A stretch of DNA of 48,095 bases. It comes from Candidatus Saccharimonadota bacterium. Lineage in GTDB: Bacteria; Patescibacteriota; Saccharimonadia; Saccharimonadales; UBA4665. The translations under genes and the position numbers were made by a program. The stretch's first letter is position 1, and each line of letters begins with the position of its first letter. The notes below the pieces were generated by a model, which ran no database searches, was not told the origin of the DNA, and saw only the letters and a list, made by a program, of their open reading frames with translations. Of the stretch, positions 3,050-47,925 are shown piece after piece. The stretch covers positions 1 to 48,095 of the forward strand of contig DAIPYY010000001.1 of assembly GCA_036782475.1 (NCBI GenBank), in the 5' to 3' direction.

Positions 3050-4867
3050 TTATTTGACGGTTTCTATGACTTGCTTTGCGGCGGCATCGGAGAGTAGACG
3101 AATCTTTTGACCTTTGTGCAGACGGCGCGCCTCATCCCATGTCAGCTCGTTATGATCGAGGGTCTGGTCGGTAAATTTCCATATCTCAGGGGTTGTTGGG
3201 GTGGCAGCGCCATTCACGGCGTCAAGCTGCTCACGGGCGATCCACCACACCGTGCTGAAATCCTCACCATTTTCACGGGCTTCGTGGCGATCAGCGTATG
3301 AGGTCATGCGAACGAAGTCGCCCTTTTTGTCGGCCTCCGCGCCTTTGAGTCTGGTTTGGACCTGCGGCTGTACAGGGATTTCCCCGTCGTCGCCATCATC
3401 AGTATCGTCTGGGTTTCCAGGAGTCTGCTCTCCTCCGGGAGTTTGCCCTCCACCAGGGGTCTGTGTCGCCGAGACACTAGGAGTCGGTGTCGGTTGCGAC
3501 TCGACCGTCCCGGAGCCGCCTGCGCATTTTGCGAGGCCAAAAAGCGCCGCCACCGCCAAGCCCCCTGCAACGAACCCTGCCAAGAATACCCTGCCCCGTC
3601 CGTTCGGTTCGACGTCCTTCGCCGTACGCGTCTTATTGTTGTCGTCTCCACCGCCGCTGCCGGCCGCCACTACCGGCACGACCGGCGGAACGGTATTTTC
3701 CGGTTTGGAAGGATCATCTCTTTTGGGCTTGGGCACAGGCACGATAGGCGGAGCTTTTTTACCAGGAGCGCCCTGTTCTGCAGCCAGCTTTGCCCCATAT
3801 GCGCGCATAGCAGAGGCTAAATCGGCGGCAGGATTTTTTGCAGTCTGCCGTGGGTAGAGGATGTCGCTGAACATATCGAATGCCGCGGTTATCGCTGCAT
3901 CGTTCCATCCCCACTTTTCCATTTGCGCGAGGAATTCGTCGAGCAAGTCGCTTTGGTTTTTCGCAAACTCGTTATCTTCCTGGGAACGCTGGATACTGGC
4001 CGCCCACGCCGCCAGGACAGCCTCGCCGGCGAGCTTCGGCATCTTGCCATAGTCCGCACCCTCAAGGTCTGCAATATGAGATGTCTCTGCCGTTTTAGCC
4101 GTGGGTAACGCAGTCTCGGATACTACCGGTGACATCCTGAATATACTCTCTGGGAGGGGGGTTTTAAACGTAGGAACAGGCGCTTCCGCGAGATCCTTCG
4201 GCGGGAAGACGATTTCTACTTTAGGGCTTCCGTCTGCCTTCCGGCCTACGACTGCATGCGGCATGGTACCTGATGGAGATATAGCCGGAGCTTTTGCAAT
4301 CTTTTTTGACGGCAACACAGGGGGAGTACCGGCATCAGCGGTATCGATTTCGACGAGCGGTCCTACGACGCTCTTCCCGAGCGAACGATGGCTGGTTTCA
4401 TATGCCCTGCCTACGCCTTCCTTCGTTTTTTCCCAAAGCTTTTGGGTACCTTGCTTAACAGTGTCTGCGGCATGCCTAAGCGCGGCTTCGGCACGGTCGA
4501 ATGGATTCGGTTTCTTAGGGTCTTCAGGCGGGTGCGACGGCTCACTTGACGACTGGCGAACAGGCATATGCGCCATAGCTTCCGCGTCCCGTACGTTCAT
4601 CTGCATGACGGTCCCGTTCAGTGTCACCACACCGACGGCCAGCGCTGTCTGCCGTTCCGCCGTAAAACGTTCCCCTACAGTAGTAAGTGCCTTGCTTATT
4701 TTCGGCAGGATTCTCTGGGTCTGTTCGCCGATACGGGTAAACAGCGTATTGATGGTACGATCGAACCCGTCGCCCATCCTATCCAGCACATCCGGCCGAT
4801 CTTCTTCTATGACACGTCCTACGCCTATACTGAGACGGCCATCATCTGCTACTTCTCTCATTTCCAA
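3050..4867 (-). CDS. hypothetical bitopic membrane protein (large cytoplasmic N-part, one TM, Pro/Thr/Gly-rich linker, about 110-aa external C-domain)
   Basis: 605-aa ORF. TTG start at 4867 has AGGAG 7 nt upstream (alternative ATG at 4861). Single hydrophobic helix VFLAGFVAGGLAVAALFGLA. No recognisable catalytic motif. Confidence 0.65.
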   Translation of the reverse strand: MEMREVADDGRLSIGVGRVIEEDRPDVLDRMGDGFDRTINTLFTRIGEQTQRILPKISKALTTVGERFTAERQTALAVGVVTLNGTVMQMNVRDAEAMAHMPVRQSSSEPSHPPEDPKKPNPFDRAEAALRHAADTVKQGTQKLWEKTKEGVGRAYETSHRSLGKSVVGPLVEIDTADAGTPPVLPSKKIAKAPAISPSGTMPHAVVGRKADGSPKVEIVFPPKDLAEAPVPTFKTPLPESIFRMSPVVSETALPTAKTAETSHIADLEGADYGKMPKLAGEAVLAAWAASIQRSQEDNEFAKNQSDLLDEFLAQMEKWGWNDAAITAAFDMFSDILYPRQTAKNPAADLASAMRAYGAKLAAEQGAPGKKAPPIVPVPKPKRDDPSKPENTVPPVVPVVAAGSGGGDDNNKTRTAKDVEPNGRGRVFLAGFVAGGLAVAALFGLAKCAGGSGTVESQPTPTPSVSATQTPGGGQTPGGEQTPGNPDDTDDGDDGEIPVQPQVQTRLKGAEADKKGDFVRMTSYADRHEARENGEDFSTVWWIAREQLDAVNGAATPTTPEIWKFTDQTLDHNELTWDEARRLHKGQKIRLLSDAAAKQVIETVK

Positions 4868-4915
4868 GGTGTCGCTCCTAAGCTTACCGTACCATAATAC
4901 TACTTTATTGATAAT

Positions 4916-39337: not shown

Positions 39338-39766
39338 ATGGCGGAGCAACTATTTCACATCGGCATAAAAGCACTCGTCGTTAACGGCGGCGGGGAAATA
39401 TTGATGCTCAAGGAAGTGTTCCCGGACGGCGGCATGCAGTGGGATGTCCCCGGCGGCCGGATGGATCCGGGCGAGACGTTCCTAGAGACACTCTCGAGGG
39501 AGCTGCGCGAAGAGATCGGAGTCGAAGAATATTTGACGGCGGAACATTTTGCGACAGCGCTCTCCAACAAGCAGATCCGGACAGAACAAGGCCCGGTCGC
39601 GCTGGTGCTCATCGTTTTCAGGGTCACCCTGGCGGATGCGGTCATGCCGCAAGCCCTCGAAAAGGGCGTGGAGTTGAGCTGGCAGCCAATTGACCAGGCG
39701 GCGGAGCTGTTACTCGACAAATATCCGCGCGAATTCGTCGAAAAGATCACGGAGATGGCCGCCTGA
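39338..39766 (+). CDS. NUDIX hydrolase
   Basis: Nudix box VPGGRMDPGETFLETLSRELREEIGV. Starts immediately after the previous stop. Confidence 0.85.
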   Translation: MAEQLFHIGIKALVVNGGGEILMLKEVFPDGGMQWDVPGGRMDPGETFLETLSRELREEIGVEEYLTAEHFATALSNKQIRTEQGPVALVLIVFRVTLADAVMPQALEKGVELSWQPIDQAAELLLDKYPREFVEKITEMAA

Positions 39767-40650
39767 TGTGGAGGCGGTTCGGGGCATATCGGGCAGGGCG
39801 AAAGGTACCGGTCCAGCAGGGAGAGTTGTTCGCACGTGTCGCCCAAACACTGCGCAGCGAGGTGCGTATCCCACGGCGACGCTGGAGGCGACACACCGAC
39901 TTCCAGTACCTGCGCCCGCTTATCGAAGAGGCAAAAAACCGAACGAGGTACGCCGCGCAGCGTGCCGAACCGCAGGCGCTCGCAGCGGCGTGGCTGGAAG
40001 CACTCGTCCTGCAGGCACCGGGAGCGGTCCTGGCACAAGTCCAGATGGACAAGCACAAACATAGCTACCACAACAAGGCCGCACGCGTCATGGAGCTCAT
40101 CGATTTCAACGATTCATACGTCAGCGCGGTGCTCACGGTGCCGCCGGATCATTTGCATACTTTCAACAGTGATCTCAAGCGGCTCATCGACTGGTTCTGT
40201 GCGCGCGTCGGCGCGTGGACATTCACTGACAAGCAGTTCGAGGCGATCACGCACGGCCTGAGCCGGGAAATCGCCGTTTACCACGCGGCGAGGGCTGCTG
40301 GGTTCCAGGTGGTAATGACCACGCGTACCGAAGATGCCCTCGGTATTGACATGCACATCACCGACCCGGCGACCAGCCGGCGCGTCCATATCGACACCAA
40401 AACCAACTCGGCATTCCACTACCGCCTCATAGAGCTGCTCAGAGAAGGACGTCTCACCCAGGCGGACATCGACTTGGCGGAACGGCGGGGCTACACCGCT
40501 GTCATGAATGGGCACGGCGACGAGCGGGTGCGCGTGGTACTCTGGCGGATCGACCATGGCACACTGGGAACGATCGAGGATTTTGCCTTTGAGCGTACCG
40601 ACAGGCTCATAGCAGAACTTGTCGCGATACTCCGGGAGTACGGCGAGTAG
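39766..40650 (+). CDS. hypothetical protein (possible PD-(D/E)XK-like core in the C-half)
   Basis: TGATG overlap with the upstream NUDIX stop. The C-half has E...LGIDMHI...VHIDTKT, resembling a D...(D/E)xK nuclease motif. The true start may be internal. Confidence 0.5.
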   Translation: MWRRFGAYRAGRKVPVQQGELFARVAQTLRSEVRIPRRRWRRHTDFQYLRPLIEEAKNRTRYAAQRAEPQALAAAWLEALVLQAPGAVLAQVQMDKHKHSYHNKAARVMELIDFNDSYVSAVLTVPPDHLHTFNSDLKRLIDWFCARVGAWTFTDKQFEAITHGLSREIAVYHAARAAGFQVVMTTRTEDALGIDMHITDPATSRRVHIDTKTNSAFHYRLIELLREGRLTQADIDLAERRGYTAVMNGHGDERVRVVLWRIDHGTLGTIEDFAFERTDRLIAELVAILREYGE

Positions 40651-40730: not shown

Positions 40731-41840
40731 ATGGCTACCTATAAAGTACTACAGGATATTGAGGCAGAGGACAAGCTCGTCGGTCCGTTTACTTTGTGGC
40801 AGTTCATCTATCTGTTCGTGGCGGGCGCTTGCGGCTACCTGAGCTTCATCTCAATCGCAAAGAATGTGCCGATTTTCCTTATCCTTCTCCTGCCGGTTAC
40901 CTTGTTTGCGGGCTTCTTAGCCATCCCCTGGGGGAGTGACCAGCCGACAGAGATATGGGCACTTGCGAAACTGCGGTTTTTCCTGAAGCCGCGGCGACGT
41001 ATCTGGAACCAGGACGGCATGACTGAACTCGTCAGTATTACGGTGCCGAAGACGATCGAACGGCAGCTGACGAACGGGCTCAATCAGCATGAAGTCCATA
41101 GCAGGCTGAACGCCCTCGCAAGTACGCTCGACAGCCGTGGATGGGCGGTCAAGAATATTAATGTCAATTTATCCGCTTTGCCCACAGCCACGATGCAGCC
41201 GTCCGACCGCCTCGTCGATGTCGGGTCAATACCCCAAGAAGTGATAGCGGTGGATGTACGCCCGGGAGACGATATCTTGGATGAGACTGCCAATACGGTC
41301 GCTCATAATTTCGACGCGATGATCGACGAAAGAACCTCCCAGAAGCGGCAAAAACTGGTTGATTTCATGAACAACCCCTTGCCGGAATCGCCGTCAGCCG
41401 TCCCCGCGGCTGCACCGCTGCCGGCAGTATCTGCCGCACAGCCTGTTTCGGCGCCCGCTCAAGCGGCCCAGTGGTTTGCTCCGCCTCCTACTGCCGCTGC
41501 TCCATTTGCTGCCCCCATCATGTCGCCTGCCGCACCGCAGCCCGTCATGAGCATGGCAGTTCCGCAGGCGGTGGAGCCGACCGCCGCCGAAGAGGCGCTT
41601 GTCGCTCAGCTGAAAGCAAAAAACGAGCAACAGGAAAGCGCCTACACGCACCTGCAAAGTATCAAGACACCGGAAGAGCTGGAGGCGGAAGCGGCAGCCC
41701 AGCAAGTTGCTCCCCCAGAGACGCCGCCGCGTATGACATCAGAGAAGCAGGCTGCTATAATGAACCTATCACGAGACGACAATAAAAGTATTGCAACGCT
41801 CGAGAAAGAAGCGAATGAAGTGGTAATTTCGCTTCATTAG
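40731..41840 (+). CDS. PrgI/VirB3-like T4SS membrane protein with a long Ala/Pro-rich C-terminal extension
   Basis: N-terminus YKVLQDIEAEDKLVGPFTLWQFIYLFVAG plus two TM helices is the PrgI-family pattern found directly upstream of VirB4 in Gram-positive-type T4SS. About 250 extra residues follow. Confidence 0.7.
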   Translation: MATYKVLQDIEAEDKLVGPFTLWQFIYLFVAGACGYLSFISIAKNVPIFLILLLPVTLFAGFLAIPWGSDQPTEIWALAKLRFFLKPRRRIWNQDGMTELVSITVPKTIERQLTNGLNQHEVHSRLNALASTLDSRGWAVKNINVNLSALPTATMQPSDRLVDVGSIPQEVIAVDVRPGDDILDETANTVAHNFDAMIDERTSQKRQKLVDFMNNPLPESPSAVPAAAPLPAVSAAQPVSAPAQAAQWFAPPPTAAAPFAAPIMSPAAPQPVMSMAVPQAVEPTAAEEALVAQLKAKNEQQESAYTHLQSIKTPEELEAEAAAQQVAPPETPPRMTSEKQAAIMNLSRDDNKSIATLEKEANEVVISLH

Positions 41841-41866
41841 AGAGCGAACGAACAGGGTGGCATAAT

Positions 41867-42802
41867 ATGAATCCAAACCAACAATATCAACAACCAACTC
41901 AGCCACAACCCCAGTATGTACCACCAGCTGGCATGCCGGCAGCACAGCCGCAGTACGCCGCTACAGCACAGCCTATGCCAATCAATACCATACCGCCCGC
42001 TCCCTTGCAGGCCGTCAGTGCCGCGCCGGGTCAGCAGGCTCCGCCCGCCGGAGCTGGGGCAATAGCACCCAAGACAAATCCCAACAGCACGCAGAACACG
42101 CTTCTCATATCTGAAATTCGCGACGGTGTCGTCATCATGAGCGACGGCAGCTTCCGGGCGGTCGTCATGGTCAAAAGCATCAACTTTGACCTGATGAGCC
42201 CGCAGGAGCAAGAAAGCATCGAATACGGGTACCAGGGGTTCCTGAACTCGTTGTATTTCCCGATTCAGATTTTCCTGCGGTCGGAAAAAGTCGATTTACA
42301 GCCCTACATCGAGCGCCTCGACAAAATCCGCACCGAACACGACAACATGCTGCTCGCCATGCTGATGGAAGATTACATCAACTACATCGACCAGCTGGCA
42401 CTCCAGACCAACATCATGGACAAGAAGTTTTACATCGTGATACCGTATTTCCCGACCGCCAACCCAGAGATGGCGACGACCCAGAACAAGAATTTCTTTA
42501 AAGGGCTCGTCGAGATGTTCAGTAAGCAGGAAAACCATATTGTCATCAATGAGGCGGACCTGGAAAAAGCCAAGGCCGAGCTGCGCAACCGTGTCCAAGC
42601 GGTGTTGGGAGGGCTGCAGCAATGTTCCATCCAGGGGCTGCCGCTTGACACCCAGGAGCTCATCGAGCTGTACTATGACACCTACAACCCGGATACCGCC
42701 ACCAGGCAACAGCTCAAGAATTTCAATGATTTGACCGCTGACATCGTCACGAAAGGCGAGGGCATGGCACAACAGGCACATCTGCAAAGGGAGTTACAGT
42801 AA
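41867..42802 (+). CDS. stand-alone VirB4 N-terminal-domain-like protein with a Gln/Pro-rich N-terminus
   Basis: No P-loop. The segment order parallels the N-domain of the next gene: FRAVVMVKSINFDLMS with ARTYYVYGYPRQVFTG, FPIQIFLRSEKVDLQPYIERL with IDISIYVYPVESQLVLDNL, and KKFYIVIPYF with FFRFGLYFTIYA. The TAATG overlap couples it to VirB4. Confidence 0.55.
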   Translation: MNPNQQYQQPTQPQPQYVPPAGMPAAQPQYAATAQPMPINTIPPAPLQAVSAAPGQQAPPAGAGAIAPKTNPNSTQNTLLISEIRDGVVIMSDGSFRAVVMVKSINFDLMSPQEQESIEYGYQGFLNSLYFPIQIFLRSEKVDLQPYIERLDKIRTEHDNMLLAMLMEDYINYIDQLALQTNIMDKKFYIVIPYFPTANPEMATTQNKNFFKGLVEMFSKQENHIVINEADLEKAKAELRNRVQAVLGGLQQCSIQGLPLDTQELIELYYDTYNPDTATRQQLKNFNDLTADIVTKGEGMAQQAHLQRELQ

Positions 42803-44715
42803 TGGCAAAACAAAAGATCGATCCCGTCCTCTTGGCGCAGCAACAGCGGGCCCGCGAGCAGGCTGAAGTAGCCGAAGCATTCCGCAAAGGCGTGACGGCG
42901 CTCCGCGATTTTATCGCCCCCAGCAGTATTGAGTTCTTCGGCAGCTATTTCCAGCTTGGCACGCGCCTGGCCCGAACCTACTATGTCTACGGCTACCCCC
43001 GACAGGTGTTTACCGGCTGGCTCAGCGGACTCGTCAACCTCGATGAAATCATAGATATATCGATTTACGTCTATCCTGTCGAGAGCCAGCTTGTGCTCGA
43101 TAACTTACGCAAGAAAGTCACCCAGCTCGAAGCGGGCCTCCAGATCGACGCAGAAAAGGGCCGGGTACGCGATCCGAGCAAGCAGGCTGCCATCCTCGAC
43201 GCCGAGGAAATGCGGGACAAACTCCAGGTGGGCGAGGAGCGGTTCTTCCGTTTCGGACTGTATTTCACCATCTACGCCAACTCACAGGATGAGCTTGAGT
43301 TCATCAGCCATAAAGTGGAAAGTATGCTCGGCCAGCAGCTTGTCTACAGCAAAGCCGCGACCAGCCAACAGGAACAGGGACTCAACAGCGTCGCACCGCA
43401 GATGGTCGACCAGCTTCAAATCCGGCGTAACATGTCGACAGGCGCCATCAGCACGAGCTTCCCGATCACTTCGGCCGATCTTACCCAGGATAATGGCATC
43501 CTTTACGGCATCAACATGCATAATAGCGGATTGGTCATTTTCGACCGGTTCACACTCGAGAACGGCAACTCGGTCGTCTTCGCGAAATCCGGCGCCGGCA
43601 AATCATTCACCGTAAAACTTGAAGCATTGCGCAGCCTGATGTTCGGCACGGAAATCATCATCATCGACCCAGAGAATGAGTATGAACGCATGTGCGACGC
43701 TGTCGGCGGAGCGTATGTCCGGCTCAGCCTCAATTCTTCGACACGCATCAACCCGTTTGACCTGCCGAAAGTCGTTGACGTCGAAGAGGCCGACAACGCC
43801 CTTCGCTCCAGCCTGATCACACTGCACGGACTGCTCCGCCTCATCATGGGCGGCGCACAGGCGCAGCTCGTCGGCGGCAACACCACGATTATGCCGGCGC
43901 TCAGCCCGTCGGAAGAAGCCGACCTCGACGCGGCACTCATCACGACATACGAGAAAGCGGGTATCACCCAAGATCCTCTGACTCATACCGGAATCCCACC
44001 TACTATAACCGACCTCTATGATACGCTGCTACACATGGGTGGTAATGGGCCGCAGCTGGCCCAGCGGCTACGCAAGTATACTAGCGGCACGTTCGCCGGC
44101 ATATTCAGCCAGCAGAGCAACATCGACATCAACAACCCGATGGTCGTCTTCAACGTCCGCGATCTCGAGGACGAACTGCGGCCGGTCGCGATGTACATCG
44201 TATTGAATTACATCTGGAACAAGACGAAGAGTGACCAAAAACGCCGCATCCTCATCGTTGACGAGGCATGGCAGCTCATGAAGTACGAAGACAGCGCTAA
44301 CTTCCTTTTCAGCCTCGCCAAGCGCGCACGTAAATACAATCTCGGTATTACGACTATCACGCAAGATGTCGAGGATTTCATGGGATCGCGCATGGGCCGT
44401 GCTATCGTCGCCAATGCCAGTATGCAGATACTCCTCAAACAGAGCCCGAGCGCCATCGACGTTCTTGCCGACGTGTTCAAACTGACAAGCGAGGAGAAAA
44501 AGCGTCTTGGACAATTCCCAGTAGGACAAGGCCTGTTTTTCGCCGGCCAAAACCATGTCCACATCCAGGTCGTCGCCAGCCCCACCGAAACGGGACTCAT
44601 CACCACCAATCCGACGCAAGTACAGGCTATCAAGCAAGGCGACCTAAACCAGCCCCAGGGAACCATCGACCTTCAAAACCAACTCTACCCCGGGAGTATG
44701 AATAACTTGTCGTAA
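42802..44715 (+). CDS. virB4: T4SS VirB4-family ATPase (Gram-positive PrgJ/TcpF type)
   Basis: Walker A AKSGAGKSF (about 43582-43608), IIIDPENEY, Walker B RILIVDEAWQL, ITTITQDVEDF. Confidence 0.88.
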   Translation: MAKQKIDPVLLAQQQRAREQAEVAEAFRKGVTALRDFIAPSSIEFFGSYFQLGTRLARTYYVYGYPRQVFTGWLSGLVNLDEIIDISIYVYPVESQLVLDNLRKKVTQLEAGLQIDAEKGRVRDPSKQAAILDAEEMRDKLQVGEERFFRFGLYFTIYANSQDELEFISHKVESMLGQQLVYSKAATSQQEQGLNSVAPQMVDQLQIRRNMSTGAISTSFPITSADLTQDNGILYGINMHNSGLVIFDRFTLENGNSVVFAKSGAGKSFTVKLEALRSLMFGTEIIIIDPENEYERMCDAVGGAYVRLSLNSSTRINPFDLPKVVDVEEADNALRSSLITLHGLLRLIMGGAQAQLVGGNTTIMPALSPSEEADLDAALITTYEKAGITQDPLTHTGIPPTITDLYDTLLHMGGNGPQLAQRLRKYTSGTFAGIFSQQSNIDINNPMVVFNVRDLEDELRPVAMYIVLNYIWNKTKSDQKRRILIVDEAWQLMKYEDSANFLFSLAKRARKYNLGITTITQDVEDFMGSRMGRAIVANASMQILLKQSPSAIDVLADVFKLTSEEKKRLGQFPVGQGLFFAGQNHVHIQVVASPTETGLITTNPTQVQAIKQGDLNQPQGTIDLQNQLYPGSMNNLS

Positions 44716-44724
44716 GGACCATTC

Positions 44725-47700
44725 ATGGCATCGTCACAAACACTCATTCCTACGGGAGAAAATCAATACGACGACGAAGATATGGAGCGCCTGAGGCGCC
44801 AGGAACGTGGTGTCACAGCCGCGGAAGACGGCGCTCCGACCGATGCTGTCGATATGAGCGGCATTGACCCGACCGCTGACCCCGACTATGTCGCACCTGC
44901 CGGAAAAGCTGGCGGCACTGCTGCCGGCGCCCCTAACTCCGCCTCAAACCTCGAACAAACAGCCCTTGGCAACCAGCCGGGCCTCGACGCGGAAGACGGT
45001 TTTTATACGGGAGGTGGAGGAAAGGGCAGAAAGCGCCGAAAATTCTGGACCAGACGACGGGCAATGGCGGGCGGCACTATCGCTGGATTTTTTGTAGGCG
45101 GGGGTATTCTCCTGTCGCCGTTCGTGATGGGTCCGCTTGAGTTCATCCATTTTGCACAGAGCCTTTCGGGCCCACACTTCGGTATATCCGAGCGTGCCAG
45201 CACACGAAATATAACCCGGTTCTATAAATTTATAACCGGGAGGGGCACAAGCACCTGTACCGCAAAAAACTGTCTCGTCCAAGATGGCGGCAAAGGAGAC
45301 ACACGCCTGAATTTCCTCGAGAGAAAATACAATAAAGTTATTTTCAAGAACATCGAGAGTAAGGGCTTCAAGATGTGGACCGATTCGAGGACGCAAACTT
45401 TTAAGGGATGGCGTATTGATACGTCCTCTAAAAATTCGCCGTTCAAGGGCATGAATGAGTCGATGATCGAAGATGCCCTGAAAGCATACGGCGTTAAAAA
45501 AGCAGATATTAAAAAAGTGGGCGGCACCGGGGGGTACTGGATAAAAAACGAGGCGCTGTTTAAGCGCGGCCAGACAAGGCTTGTAATGGCGATGTTGCAA
45601 GAGTCCGGCTATAGCAAAGTAGGATCGTGGATTAGGGCACGGCAACTCTGTAAATTCGCCGGCTGTGGTTTCCACCCCCTGAAAATATTGGACGAAAAAC
45701 TCAATGACAAACTCGACAAGGGACTCAAAAAACTGAAAGAAGAGTATGAAAAAAGCCGCAGGGCCAGTATCACCGGCACTGAAGCGTCAGGGGCGACTAT
45801 CGATACCACCAACACGGAGGAGCAAACAACCGGCGAGGACGGAGAACGCACCAACCAGTCTGTCGATGAATCCCTGAAGACCACGAAAACCACGACATCG
45901 CCGACGGCAATCAGTGATTTCATGAAATCTTTTGCCGCTCGTCCTTCCACGAAGATAAGTGCCAATGTTCTTGATGTTGTCGGTTATGCGTGTCTCGCCG
46001 CCAATATATATAAGGCTGCCGGCGATATCAACTTCGACCAAACTGTTATGCCGGCAATTAGGTTGGCAACGGAGCAAATCGCGACAGGCTCCCAAATAGA
46101 AGCAAGCAGCCTCATAGATGGTACCTTTAATTCAACAAGTCTTGAGCTTGCACATGAATACCTCGAGGCAAAGGATTCTTCTGGCAAAACAACAAGCTGG
46201 AGCGATGCTGCAAATATCCGCCAAAACAACGGTCTTAGCGGCGGGACGGATATTTCCTCGGATAAAAAAGAAATCTTATCGAACCCGGGCAAAGGCCCAT
46301 CCTGGCTTGAGTGGACCGAACCGATGGTAGACTTTTGCAGCAATCAAGCCATACAAGCTACTATGGGGGTACTTAGTATTGGGATAGGAGTGTTGAGTGG
46401 TGGTATGGTATCTACGATCGTGGGGGCTGTCGTTGGGTATTTTGCCGCCCCGGCAGCCCTAAATTTAATCGCGCAGAGTGTGGCAGGTAATGCTCTCGAT
46501 ATTGCCGGAGTAAAAGGAATCGAGATGGGTCAGTACGCTGATTTTGGGGCATTCTTTGGTGCTAATCTCGCAAGGCAGATGCGTGGAGGTAGGATCCTCA
46601 GCAGCGCAAGCGCGCTCAAACTTGCGCAAGATAATATGGATACCAAAAACGAAGAATTCGCATCGCAAAGTATCGCCTATAAACTCTTCAATGCATATGA
46701 CAGCAAATCGCTCATCTCGCGGGTCGTCGATACCCAGTCTACCTATGCGACCGAAAACATTGCGTCGACGATTAATAACTTCCTGGGTATCGGTACGAGC
46801 ACATTATCAACCATCGGCGGACTTTTCTCGAAAAAATCGAGCGCAGCAACTACTATGTACGATTATGGCATCCCGATGGTTGGATTCAGCCTCGAAGAGC
46901 AGGAAAACCCCCTTACGGAAAACCCGTATGAGAACGCAGCAATCGTAGGTGCCTTCCTCGACACTCCTGCCAGTAGCAGCCTCAAGGATCGTGCGCTGCG
47001 TTGTAACGGTGTAGAGTTCTACAAAGACGATCAATTTGGCTGGAGCATACGTAGCATCGCCGATCCGAACGCGGGCGCCGAGAATAATGTATTTCAAAAA
47101 TATGTCACCGGACATCTTGATAGTGACTGCGGTACCGATCCGGTCATCGCCGCCGCTGATTCGGATGCTACCGTTGCGACGGGAACGGGGTACGTAGCAG
47201 CAGCGGAAGATGACATGTGGACGCGCATGCGGAAGTTCATCGACGACCTCAGTGAGTTTGAGTCATACACGTGTCTTATGGCCGATGATGAAACCTCATG
47301 CGATAACAGCGGCTTCGGAGCTACTACTGCCGCCAGCAGTAGCACGGTCAATACCGACGACCTATACAAGGACTCAACCTCTATAAGTTGCGACACTCGC
47401 ACGAAAGATCTAGGAACACAAGAGGTCCAGCATGAAAGCAGTACATTTAAAATCAGGGTCTGCGGGATAAAAGAAATACCCAGTTCTGGACAGGAAAGCA
47501 CCAAAGGAAACCAGTACTACATCGAAGGCGCCGATGGCATGACAATCGTCAACTCAAGAGTATCGACGATCTTTATGAACCTGGCAGAGGATGCGACTGC
47601 GAATAATACTAAACTTTCAAGTAGCTCAAGTTTCCGCATGCACTCACATCAGCAAGATTTATGGAACGCCAATCCCGACCCGGAAGCAGTGGGGCCCCCG

Positions 47701-47925
47701 GGAAAAAGCAATCACGAAGTAGGAATAGCGGTGGACTTCAATACGGGTGGGTCGAAAAAATCAGGCGCATCATGCGACGCGAGGGCGACAAGTAGCTCAG
47801 CCATGTGGAAGTACCTCAACGGCTCATCGGGAGAGCCGGGCGCACAGAAATTCGGAATATACCAGTACGCCGTCGAGCCGTGGCATTGGGATGCATCCCC
47901 GACACGCTGTAAGGAGCCTTTGTGA
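44725..47925 (+). CDS. large membrane-anchored protein with a C-terminal M15 (VanY-type, LAS fold) D-Ala-D-Ala peptidase domain; candidate T4SS cell-wall hydrolase
   Basis: TM helix near aa 115-140 and a central TM cluster near aa 545-590. C-terminus has SSFRMHSHQQDLW, SNHEVGIAVDF (47707-47739) and EPWHWD (47875-47892), the SxxR / SxHxxGxAxD / ExxH zinc-peptidase pattern. Confidence 0.75.
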   Translation: MASSQTLIPTGENQYDDEDMERLRRQERGVTAAEDGAPTDAVDMSGIDPTADPDYVAPAGKAGGTAAGAPNSASNLEQTALGNQPGLDAEDGFYTGGGGKGRKRRKFWTRRRAMAGGTIAGFFVGGGILLSPFVMGPLEFIHFAQSLSGPHFGISERASTRNITRFYKFITGRGTSTCTAKNCLVQDGGKGDTRLNFLERKYNKVIFKNIESKGFKMWTDSRTQTFKGWRIDTSSKNSPFKGMNESMIEDALKAYGVKKADIKKVGGTGGYWIKNEALFKRGQTRLVMAMLQESGYSKVGSWIRARQLCKFAGCGFHPLKILDEKLNDKLDKGLKKLKEEYEKSRRASITGTEASGATIDTTNTEEQTTGEDGERTNQSVDESLKTTKTTTSPTAISDFMKSFAARPSTKISANVLDVVGYACLAANIYKAAGDINFDQTVMPAIRLATEQIATGSQIEASSLIDGTFNSTSLELAHEYLEAKDSSGKTTSWSDAANIRQNNGLSGGTDISSDKKEILSNPGKGPSWLEWTEPMVDFCSNQAIQATMGVLSIGIGVLSGGMVSTIVGAVVGYFAAPAALNLIAQSVAGNALDIAGVKGIEMGQYADFGAFFGANLARQMRGGRILSSASALKLAQDNMDTKNEEFASQSIAYKLFNAYDSKSLISRVVDTQSTYATENIASTINNFLGIGTSTLSTIGGLFSKKSSAATTMYDYGIPMVGFSLEEQENPLTENPYENAAIVGAFLDTPASSSLKDRALRCNGVEFYKDDQFGWSIRSIADPNAGAENNVFQKYVTGHLDSDCGTDPVIAAADSDATVATGTGYVAAAEDDMWTRMRKFIDDLSEFESYTCLMADDETSCDNSGFGATTAASSSTVNTDDLYKDSTSISCDTRTKDLGTQEVQHESSTFKIRVCGIKEIPSSGQESTKGNQYYIEGADGMTIVNSRVSTIFMNLAEDATANNTKLSSSSSFRMHSHQQDLWNANPDPEAVGPPGKSNHEVGIAVDFNTGGSKKSGASCDARATSSSAMWKYLNGSSGEPGAQKFGIYQYAVEPWHWDASPTRCKEPL

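What the first reader, a model, noticed from the sequence alone, without database searches (positions are those of the whole stretch)
41867..42802. Stand-alone VirB4 N-terminal-domain paralogue between the VirB3-like gene and VirB4
The 311-aa protein has no nucleotide-binding motifs. After a Gln/Pro-rich head its segment order parallels the N-terminal domain of the adjacent VirB4 (beta-rich block, hydrophobic I/V-x-I/V-x block, FY-rich strand, helical end). It is coupled to virB4 by a TAATG overlap. An extra membrane- or VirB3-interacting VirB4 N-domain encoded separately is not part of the textbook T4SS parts list. It could form mixed assemblies with the ATPase.
Basis: inference. Interest (0 to 1): 0.65.

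Follow-up and report, generated by a model that had tools for sequence, protein, structure and literature searches.

The report
Detached N-terminal piece of VirB4 (TrsD)
The 311-residue protein is a member of the already described TrsD family, the front end of the VirB4 secretion ATPase encoded as its own gene; the ATPase next door lacks exactly that piece, so this is a split gene and not an extra copy, and it is ordinary for this group of bacteria.

Summary
The ORF (41867-42802, +, 311 aa) is real. It has a Gln/Pro-rich disordered head, no Walker motifs, and a TAATG overlap with the downstream VirB4-like ATPase.

Its relation to VirB4 N-terminal regions is confirmed. 92 of 98 family members match a full-length VirB4 profile, and the 14 best Foldseek hits of its AF2 model are all TrwK/VirB4 of R388.

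It is not an extra paralogue of its neighbour's N-domain. Family members map to positions 1-134 of the 752-position CD1110 VirB4 profile. The 637-aa ATPase maps to positions 176-733 and to PrgJ from residue 221. Profile-profile comparison of the two families gives a probability of 0.3-2.4%.

About 68 clusters of Patescibacteria proteins (860-910 aa) carry both parts fused in the same order. The same break point occurs in Bacillus TrsD/TrsE.

The family is already catalogued as Pfam PF26593 "TraC-like" and NCBIfam TrsD/TraD. A 2025 survey (PMC12102498) names TrsD the most abundant T4SS component in Patescibacteria, remotely homologous to the VirB4 N-terminus, usually next to virB4, and essential in Ca. 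S. epibionticum.

Most likely it rebuilds the VirB4 N-terminal domain in trans. Interest is low.

The parts
40731..41840 (+). PrgI-family (VirB3-like) membrane protein, 369 aa. The N-terminal PrgI domain has hydrophobic segments; a long Ala/Pro-rich C-terminal tail follows.
   Evidence: PF12666 PrgI E 1.2e-8, residues 5-91. Hydrophobic maximum at residues about 20-65. 51-53% identical to PrgI genes in the same position in L005 and L007.
41855..41860 (+). Shine-Dalgarno-like GGGTGG, 6 nt upstream of the ATG of the 311-aa ORF
   Evidence: Sequence read directly.
41867..42802 (+). TrsD-family / Pfam PF26593 'TraC-like' protein, 311 aa: the separately encoded N-terminal segment of VirB4
   Evidence: NF041427 TrsD E 1.1e-6; CD1110 VirB4 profile positions 11-116; VirB4_plasma positions 99-284. 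The identical protein P0001 carries PF26593. Foldseek top hits are TrwK/VirB4.
41867..42082 (+). Gln/Pro/Ala-rich head (residues 1-72), predicted disordered and not conserved in the family
   Evidence: pLDDT 48-58. 64% Q+P+A. Head length across the family is 5-185 residues, median 17.
42083..42736 (+). Folded alpha/beta core (residues about 73-290), homologous to the first about 130-190 positions of full-length VirB4 profiles
   Evidence: pLDDT mostly above 90. 92 of 98 family members match the VirB4_plasma profile and 67 of 98 match CD1110, always at the profile N-terminus.
42788..42793 (+). Shine-Dalgarno-like AGGGAG inside the end of the 311-aa ORF, 8 nt upstream of the virB4 ATG
   Evidence: Sequence read directly.
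42800..42804 (+). TAATG stop/start overlap (possible translational coupling)
   Evidence: Sequence read directly. The junction varies in relatives: a 40-nt gap in L005 and an overlap in L007.
42802..44715 (+). Short (TrsE-type) VirB4 ATPase, 637 aa. It lacks the first N-terminal segment but keeps the second part of the NTD and the ATPase domain.
   Evidence: NF045971 E 2.2e-105, profile positions 176-733 of 752. Aligns to PrgJ residues 221-772. Residues 226-601 match the VirB4 CTD structure 4ag5 at E 1e-48.
43582..43605 (+). Walker A (AKSGAGKS, residues 261-268 of the ATPase)
   Evidence: Motif search.
44248..44265 (+). Walker B (ILIVDE, residues 483-488 of the ATPase)
   Evidence: Motif search.
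44725..47925 (+). 1066-aa protein with a C-terminal VanY/M15 peptidase domain. It is the likely cell-wall hydrolase of the system, in the position of PrgK/VirB1.
   Evidence: PF02557 VanY E 7e-10, residues 942-1055. A VanY protein holds the same position in L005, and PrgK does in pCF10.

Best explanation
The 311-aa protein is a Saccharibacteria member of the TrsD family (Pfam PF26593 'TraC-like'). It corresponds to the first N-terminal segment of a VirB4 ATPase (roughly the first 130-190 profile positions) and is encoded as a separate gene directly upstream of a short, TrsE-type VirB4 that lacks that segment. The two gene products most likely associate, helped by co-translation from overlapping genes. 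Together they would rebuild the complete VirB4 N-terminal domain. In the solved R388 machine that domain is the part VirB3 wraps around and the part that mediates VirB4-VirB4 contacts. The assembled unit would therefore be PrgI/VirB3 + TrsD-like + short VirB4, forming the membrane-associated ATPase base of the chromosomal, monoderm-type T4SS of this organism. Shown here: the homology, the complementarity, the conserved adjacency and the natural fusions. Inferred: physical association and VirB3 binding. The Gln/Pro-rich head is a variable disordered appendage with no assigned role.
For: (1) Complementary profile coverage. The TrsD-like protein covers CD1110 profile 11-116 and VirB4_plasma 99-284. 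The neighbouring ATPase covers CD1110 176-733, VirB4_plasma 292-890 and TIGR00929 247-731. Ten diverse family members all map to the extreme N-terminus: CD1110 1-134, TIGR00929 3-151, A. tumefaciens VirB4 model 3-70.
(2) Family-wide consistency: 93 of 98 members match TrsD, 92 match VirB4_plasma (best E 1e-14), 67 match CD1110 and 23 match TIGR00929.
(3) The short ATPase aligns to unsplit PrgJ (796 aa) only from residue 221. In pCF10, PrgI is followed directly by PrgJ.
(4) Natural fusions. P0219 (898 aa) matches the TrsD-like core at residues 13-228 (E 3e-47) and the ATPase at residues 310-889 (49% identity). About 68 such clusters of 860-910 aa carry PF26593 plus the ATPase domains. The fusion model aligns colinearly with whole TrwK chains.
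(5) Structure. The AF2 core has pLDDT above 90, and the top 14 Foldseek PDB hits are all TrwK/VirB4 at probability 1.0.
(6) Conserved synteny PrgI / TraC-like / short VirB4 / hydrolase in L005, L006, L007 and the Pontibacillus plasmid L001. Bacillus TrsD (CD1110 17-171) and TrsE (177-732) share the same break point.
(7) Literature. TrsD is remotely homologous to the VirB4 N-terminus; 1,664 of 2,272 Patescibacteria homologues lie next to virB4; it is essential in Ca. S. epibionticum ML1 (PMC12102498). VirB3 wraps around the VirB4 NTD, and the NTD mediates the VirB4 dimer (PMC9259494).
Against: No direct evidence of physical association was obtained. No multimer prediction was possible, and the single-chain fusion model has pTM 0.48, so the packing of the two parts is not confidently predicted. 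Global RMSD to TrwK is about 21 A. The match to the TrsD NCBIfam model is far below its curated cut-off (28.7 against 200 bits). The window protein's own E-values to VirB4 profiles are modest (2e-5 to 6e-5). The family HMM does not reach significance against PrgJ, TcpF or TrwK sequences. Foldseek did not report which TrwK residues were matched. [quoted passage not shown]
Confidence: 0.75

Rival explanations
1. One reading: an extra, paralogous copy of the VirB4 N-domain. It would coexist with a complete N-domain on the adjacent ATPase and form mixed assemblies with it.
For: The protein does have VirB4-type N-terminal homology. In the AF2 models the TrsD-like part and the first about 170 residues of the ATPase part show a similar order of secondary-structure elements. 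An ancient internal duplication of the VirB4 NTD therefore cannot be excluded.
Against: BLASTP between the two proteins gives E 0.65, and that alignment is not N-domain to N-domain. hhalign gives 2.4% for whole families and 0.3-0.4% for trimmed regions, with score 16 against 13.7 for a reversed control. The ATPase lacks the first about 175 (CD1110) to 290 (VirB4_plasma) profile positions and the first 220 residues of PrgJ, so nothing is duplicated. Fused relatives carry one copy of each part, in order.
Confidence: 0.07
2. An independent accessory factor. TrsD descends from a VirB4 N-terminal segment but now acts on its own, for example as an assembly chaperone, an adaptor for PrgI or pilins, or a sub-stoichiometric regulator. 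In that case it would not simply complete every ATPase subunit's N-domain.
For: Separate genes allow different stoichiometry. In R388 only the six central VirB4 subunits, of twelve, bind VirB3. TrsD homologues in Gracilibacteria are mostly not adjacent to virB4. Family members carry highly variable disordered heads and tails: heads of 5-185 residues and tails of 0-166. No function has been assigned in the literature.
Against: Same-order fusions in about 68 clusters argue for 1:1 action in cis in those lineages. The break point is the same in Bacillus, Pontibacillus, Saccharibacteria and a haloarchaeal plasmid. The genes are tightly adjacent, often overlapping.
Confidence: 0.15
3. An artefact: a frameshifted or pseudogenised full-length virB4, or a mis-assembly.
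For: Adjacent same-strand ORFs overlapping by one base could in principle come from a frameshift.
Against: More than 7,300 homologues of similar length. Relatives have different junctions: a 40-nt gap in L005 and an overlap in L007. Each gene has its own SD-like motif. Stand-alone homologues occur in 431 plasmid records. The ATPase has its own conserved N-terminus in 44 aligned relatives.
Confidence: 0.01

Closest known systems
TrsD of Staphylococcus aureus pGO1 / TraD of pSK41-type plasmids (NCBIfam NF041427; MPF-FATA 'TrsD' profile), with Bacillus cereus/thuringiensis plasmid TrsD
   Same: A small protein without a P-loop, encoded directly upstream of a short VirB4 (TrsE, about 620-670 aa) and downstream of a VirB3-like gene. 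It matches the N-terminus of full-length VirB4 profiles. The break point is the same: Bacillus TrsD covers CD1110 17-171 and TrsE covers 177-732. The window protein and 93 of 98 relatives hit NF041427.
   Different: Very divergent: 28.7 bits against the 200-bit curated cut-off, and about 25% identity to Bacillus TrsD by tblastn. It is chromosomal, in an obligate epibiont, and not on a conjugative plasmid. It carries a 72-residue Gln/Pro-rich disordered head.
Pfam PF26593 'TraC-like' domain, and the Patescibacteria TrsD homologues surveyed by Quinonero-Coronel et al. 2025 (PMC12102498)
   Same: This is the same family. The identical protein P0001 and all 120 listed homologues carry PF26593. The paper reports 2,272 TrsD homologues in Patescibacteria, 1,664 of them next to virB4, and essentiality in Ca. 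S. epibionticum ML1.
   Different: Nothing substantive. In the passages read, the paper does not state that the neighbouring VirB4 lacks the corresponding segment, and it does not mention TrsD-VirB4 fusions.
N-terminal domain of full-length VirB4: TrwK of R388 (residues 15-400; PDB 7o41, 8rtb, 8rtd), PrgJ of pCF10
   Same: The fold of the core matches TrwK chains. The sequence profiles of full-length VirB4 families match at their N-termini.
   Different: In those proteins the segment is covalently part of one about 800-aa chain. Here it is a separate polypeptide covering only the first part of the NTD. No significant direct sequence match to TrwK or PrgJ was found.
VirB3-VirB4 fusion proteins (described in some conjugative systems; cited in PMC12102498)
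   Same: Another case where the gene boundaries of the VirB3/VirB4 inner-membrane ATPase module differ between lineages.
   Different: That is a fusion of two components and this is a fission of one. No VirB3-VirB4 fusions were found in Patescibacteria.

Membership tests
TrsD/TraD family (NCBIfam NF041427) / Pfam PF26593 TraC-like | Significant match to the family profile | tested here: met
   PF26593 is precomputed for the identical protein P0001 and for all 120 listed homologues. NF041427 gives E 1.1e-6 for the window protein, and 93 of 98 relatives match (best E 8.5e-13). Caveat: 28.7 bits is far below NCBIfam's curated 200-bit cut-off, so it is a distant member by that model. My local Pfam copy lacks PF26593.
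TrsD/TraD family (NCBIfam NF041427) / Pfam PF26593 TraC-like | Encoded immediately upstream of a short (TrsE-type) VirB4 ATPase within a monoderm-type T4SS cluster | tested here: met
   TAATG overlap with the 637-aa VirB4. PrgI lies upstream and a hydrolase downstream. The order is the same in L001, L005, L007 and L008.
TrsD/TraD family (NCBIfam NF041427) / Pfam PF26593 TraC-like | Small soluble protein without nucleotide-binding motifs | tested here: met
   No Walker A or B motif and no TM-like segment.
TrsD/TraD family (NCBIfam NF041427) / Pfam PF26593 TraC-like | Required for T4SS function | not testable with these tools
   Literature only: the TrsD homologue of Ca. S. epibionticum ML1 is listed as essential (PMC12102498).
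VirB4 N-terminal domain (homology/fold) | Fold matches the solved VirB4 NTD | tested here: met
   The top 14 Foldseek PDB hits are all TrwK/VirB4 (E 8e-5 to 4e-3, probability 1.0, 152-213 aligned columns). The next hits are noise. The target coordinates of the match were not reported.
VirB4 N-terminal domain (homology/fold) | Sequence-profile match located at the N-terminus of full-length VirB4 families | tested here: met
   CD1110 1-134, VirB4_plasma 95-284, TIGR00929 3-151, PRK13853 3-70.
VirB4 N-terminal domain (homology/fold) | Binds VirB3 and mediates VirB4 oligomer contacts | not testable with these tools
   Known for TrwK (PMC9259494). No multimer prediction or experiment was available here.
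Split (two-gene) VirB4 | The partner ATPase lacks the segment carried by the small protein (complementary, non-overlapping coverage of a full-length profile) | tested here: met
   311-aa protein: CD1110 11-116. 637-aa protein: CD1110 176-733. The 637-aa protein aligns to PrgJ from residue 221. The same holds in Bacillus and Pontibacillus.
Split (two-gene) VirB4 | Fused single-chain versions exist in relatives, in the same order | tested here: met
   P0219 and about 68 clusters of 860-910 aa.
   BLASTP E 0.65. hhalign probability 2.4% for whole families and 0.3-0.4% for trimmed regions, equal to a reversed control. Structural superposition could not be done because no model coordinates were available.

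The most novel reading that the evidence does not exclude
Keeping the first VirB4 N-terminal segment on its own polypeptide may be functional and not neutral. It could let the cell load TrsD onto only a subset of ATPase subunits, for example the VirB3-bound 'central' ring and not the 'outside' subunits seen in R388. It could also gate assembly of the T4SS that is essential in these epibionts, with the variable disordered Gln/Pro head acting as an interaction or regulatory handle. A second possibility is that the VirB4 NTD is an ancient tandem duplication of one alpha/beta module, so that TrsD and the ATPase's first about 170 residues are very distant paralogues after all.
Probability: 0.12. 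Interest if true: 0.5.

Novelty: already known. Interest (0 to 1): 0.2.

Why it matters
For annotation, the gene should be called a TrsD-family / VirB4 N-terminal-segment protein and not "hypothetical". The 637-aa ATPase should be understood as an N-terminally short VirB4 that probably cannot work alone. For T4SS biology, the complementary coverage, the shared break point across Saccharibacteria, Bacillota plasmids and a haloarchaeal plasmid, and the natural fusions in Berkelbacteria-like lineages give a concrete, testable role to a component that the literature lists as of unknown function: completing the VirB3-binding N-domain of VirB4. This is a modest refinement of known facts and not a new kind of system.

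Tried and rejected
(1) The local Pfam scan of the 311-aa protein gave only sub-threshold noise (TraC_F_IV E 0.09), because PF26593 is missing from the local copy.
(2) Sequence searches against PDB chains found nothing relevant, with the single protein or with the 98-sequence profile. TrwK is too distant for sequence methods.
(3) The family HMM against PrgJ, TcpF and TrsE touched PrgJ residues 30-93 at the right place but was not significant (E 0.11 over 13 targets). BLASTP of the 311-aa protein against PrgJ gave E 0.02 at PrgJ 34-92.
(4) The paralogy test against the neighbour's N-terminal region was negative by BLASTP, hhalign on whole families, hhalign on trimmed regions in local and global modes, and a reversed control.
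(5) The AF2 model of the natural fusion was meant to show the two parts packing like the TrwK NTD. pTM was only 0.48 and global RMSD to TrwK about 21 A, so only colinearity can be claimed, not packing.
(6) Model coordinates are not exposed to the Python sandbox. I therefore could not superpose the TrsD core on the ATPase N-terminal region or on TrwK sub-regions.
(7) Literature. Guglielmini 2014 does not discuss TrsD in its main text. The 2025 nomenclature review does not mention TrsD. Wang 2023 does not name VirB4 or TrsD in its main text. The pELF paper's TraD is a VirD4 homologue and is irrelevant. The pNP40 paper has no TrsD equivalent discussed.
(8) The frameshift/pseudogene idea was rejected on conservation.

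Full report
**Observation.** The ORF is present as described: 41867..42802 on the + strand, 311 aa, ATG start. It is preceded by a GGGTGG Shine-Dalgarno-like motif. Its TAA stop overlaps the ATG of the next ORF (42802..44715, 637 aa) in the sequence TAATG, with AGGGAG just upstream.

The 311-aa protein has no Walker A or B motif and no hydrophobic segment. The neighbour carries AKSGAGKS (residue 261) and ILIVDE (residue 483). Residues 1-72 are 43% Gln+Pro (64% with Ala) against 12% in the rest. They are predicted disordered (pLDDT about 50).

Upstream lies a PrgI-family (VirB3-like) membrane protein (PF12666, E 1.2e-8). Downstream of the ATPase lies a 1066-aa protein with a VanY/M15 peptidase domain. 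The wider window is chromosomal housekeeping DNA: Mur ligase, ValRS, ArgRS, a P-type ATPase, PolA and dUTPase.

**Is it VirB4-related?** Yes. NCBIfam profiles of full-length VirB4 families match the 311-aa protein. The CD1110 family matches residues 84-189 to profile positions 11-116 of 752 (E 5.7e-5). The Mycoplasma-ICE VirB4 matches residues 70-282 to positions 99-284 of 894 (E 2.1e-5). The best match is the TrsD/TraD family (NF041427, E 1.1e-6).

These modest E-values hold up across the family. Of 98 diverse relatives, 93 match TrsD, 92 match the Mycoplasma-ICE VirB4 (best E 1e-14), 67 match CD1110 (best 8.6e-9) and 23 match the classical VirB4/CagE model TIGR00929 (best 2.5e-9). In ten members examined individually, the match always sits at the extreme N-terminus of the full-length profiles: CD1110 1-134, TIGR00929 3-151, and the A. 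tumefaciens VirB4 model 3-70.

An AF2 model built from a 98-sequence alignment has a confident alpha/beta core (residues about 75-290, pLDDT mostly above 90). Its 14 best Foldseek hits in the PDB are all TrwK/VirB4 chains of the R388 T4SS (E 8e-5 to 4e-3, probability 1.0). After those, scores drop to noise.

**Is it an extra paralogue of the neighbour's N-domain?** No.
- BLASTP between the two window proteins finds nothing (best E 0.65, and that alignment is not N-domain to N-domain).
- Profile-profile comparison of the TrsD-like family (98 sequences) with the short-ATPase family (44 sequences) gives 2.4% probability.
- Restricting both to the relevant regions gives 0.3-0.4%, with score 16 against 13.7 for a reversed-sequence control.

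More important, the neighbour does not contain the segment in question. It matches CD1110 only from profile position 176, the Mycoplasma-ICE VirB4 from 292, and TIGR00929 from 247. It aligns with the unsplit PrgJ of pCF10 (796 aa) only from PrgJ residue 221. The two window proteins therefore cover a full-length VirB4 profile end to end without overlap. This is a split VirB4, not VirB4 plus a spare N-domain.

In pCF10 the order is PrgI, PrgJ (unsplit), PrgK. Here it is PrgI-like, TrsD-like, short VirB4, hydrolase.

**Natural fusions.** A representative search turned up P0219 (898 aa). Its residues 13-228 match the 311-aa core (37% identity, E 3e-47). After a Pro/Ala-rich linker, its residues 310-889 match the 637-aa ATPase (49% identity, E 0).

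Querying with P0219 returned about 68 distinct clusters of 860-910-aa proteins from Berkelbacteria and other Patescibacteria. They carry PF26593 followed by the P-loop_TraG, DUF87 and AAA_10 domains. Below them in the list come 580-700-aa ATPases without PF26593.

The fusion model aligns colinearly with whole TrwK chains (about 950 alignment columns). Its pTM is only 0.48, so I claim colinearity and not a confirmed packing.

**Conservation and spread.**
- The 311-aa protein has more than 7,300 homologues of 260-340 aa and 2,400 representatives at 50% clustering.
- In two other Saccharimonadia genomes the order PrgI / PF26593 'TraC-like' / about 636-aa VirB4 / large hydrolase recurs. One has a 40-nt gap between the two genes and the other an overlap. 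This excludes a frameshift artefact.
- tblastn finds stand-alone homologues in 431 plasmid records, mostly Bacillus, some annotated TrsD.
- In B. cereus pH308197_73, TrsD covers CD1110 positions 17-171 and the adjacent TrsE covers 177-732. A Pontibacillus megaplasmid has the same four-gene order.
- A Haloarcula plasmid has the domain in the gene directly upstream of a VirB4-like ATPase that starts at CD1110 position 158.

The break point is thus shared across very distant lineages.

**What is already known.** The family is catalogued as Pfam PF26593 'TraC-like', NCBIfam NF041427 'TrsD/TraD family conjugative transfer protein', and the MPF-FATA TrsD profile.

Quinonero-Coronel et al. [quoted passage not shown] They found 2,272 homologues, 1,664 of them associated with virB4. 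They note it is otherwise confined to the pGO1-type subclass, has no assigned function, and is listed as essential in Ca. Southlakia epibionticum ML1.

So the stand-alone gene and its VirB4 homology are known, in exactly this group of organisms. In the passages I read, that paper does not say the partner ATPase lacks the corresponding segment, and it does not mention TrsD-VirB4 fusions. Those two points are small additions from this analysis.

**Mechanism.** In R388, the TrwK/VirB4 N-terminal domain spans residues 15-400. VirB3 wraps around the NTD of the central VirB4 subunits. The central/outside VirB4 dimer interface is made entirely by NTDs (PMC9259494).

From this, plus the complementarity, the fusions, the tight adjacency and the upstream PrgI gene, I infer that the TrsD-like protein associates with the short ATPase to complete its N-terminal domain. 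I also infer that this composite is what PrgI/VirB3 binds at the membrane. The association itself was not tested here.

A weaker alternative (about 0.15) is that the separate polypeptide is used sub-stoichiometrically or as a regulator. It rests mainly on one observation I could not test: the AF2 secondary-structure order of the TrsD part resembles that of the first about 170 residues of the ATPase part.

**Verdict.** This is an ordinary member of a known family, so interest is low.

Noticed in passing
P0219 and P0271-P0339 (proteins from public metagenomes; no window coordinates): About 68 clusters of 860-910-aa Patescibacteria proteins (Berkelbacteria and others) are natural TrsD-VirB4 fusions, with a Pro/Ala-rich linker between the two parts. 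Other Berkelbacteria records in the same hit list have the short 580-640-aa ATPase. The 2025 survey does not mention such fusions in the passages read.
   Followed up: partly
NCBIfam NF042935 (SCO6880 family); hits from P0270 and from L001:4926-6791, L009:5647-7932: TrsD-like members hit SCO6880-family profile positions 238-295. The N-termini of short VirB4 ATPases hit positions 301-475 of the same 477-position profile. This suggests that in Actinobacteria the whole VirB4 N-terminal domain may be a separate protein, which would be a different split point.
   Followed up: no
L009:3980-5650 and L009:5647-7932 (Haloarcula pelagica plasmid): tblastn places a TrsD-like domain at the N-terminus of a 556-aa archaeal hypothetical protein. 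That gene lies directly upstream of, and overlaps, a 761-aa VirB4-like ATPase whose profile match starts at CD1110 position 158. The split arrangement therefore extends to archaeal plasmids.
   Followed up: partly
window 40731-41840: The PrgI/VirB3-like protein is 369 aa, against 117 aa for pCF10 PrgI. After the PrgI domain (residues 5-91) comes a long Ala/Pro-rich tail of about 270 residues. The length is conserved in L005 (376 aa) and L007 (373 aa) at 51-53% identity. The function of the extension is unknown.
   Followed up: partly
window 39766-40650: A 294-aa ORF with no Pfam or NCBIfam match sits just upstream of the PrgI-like gene. It is 69% identical to the 297-aa gene at the equivalent position in L005 (3564-4457), so it is a conserved unknown gene that may belong to the T4SS cluster. 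It has no counterpart in L007.
   Followed up: partly
window 44725-47925: The 1066-aa protein downstream of virB4 has only a C-terminal VanY/M15 peptidase domain (residues 942-1055). It is just 24% identical to its positional counterpart in L005, although the TrsD-like, PrgI and VirB4 genes are 50-75% identical. It appears to be a fast-evolving putative cell-wall hydrolase or effector.
   Followed up: no
model mb2c95f497bc3 (P0219), residues 20-214 versus 339-481; window protein residues 81-259: The TrsD-like part and the first about 170 residues of the ATPase part share a similar order of secondary-structure elements (three strands, helix, strand, two helices, strand, helix, strand). There is no sequence signal for it (hhalign 0.3-0.4%), and no superposition was possible.
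   Followed up: partly
L002:4213-4895 (S. aureus plasmid pSR01, between trsC and trsE): Where trsD is expected, only a 134-aa ORF (4477-4881) is found. It weakly matches the C-terminal half of the TrsD-like family HMM (domain E 0.015), and the PLSDB table lists no gene there. It may be a truncated or frameshifted trsD, or simply a very divergent one.
   Followed up: no
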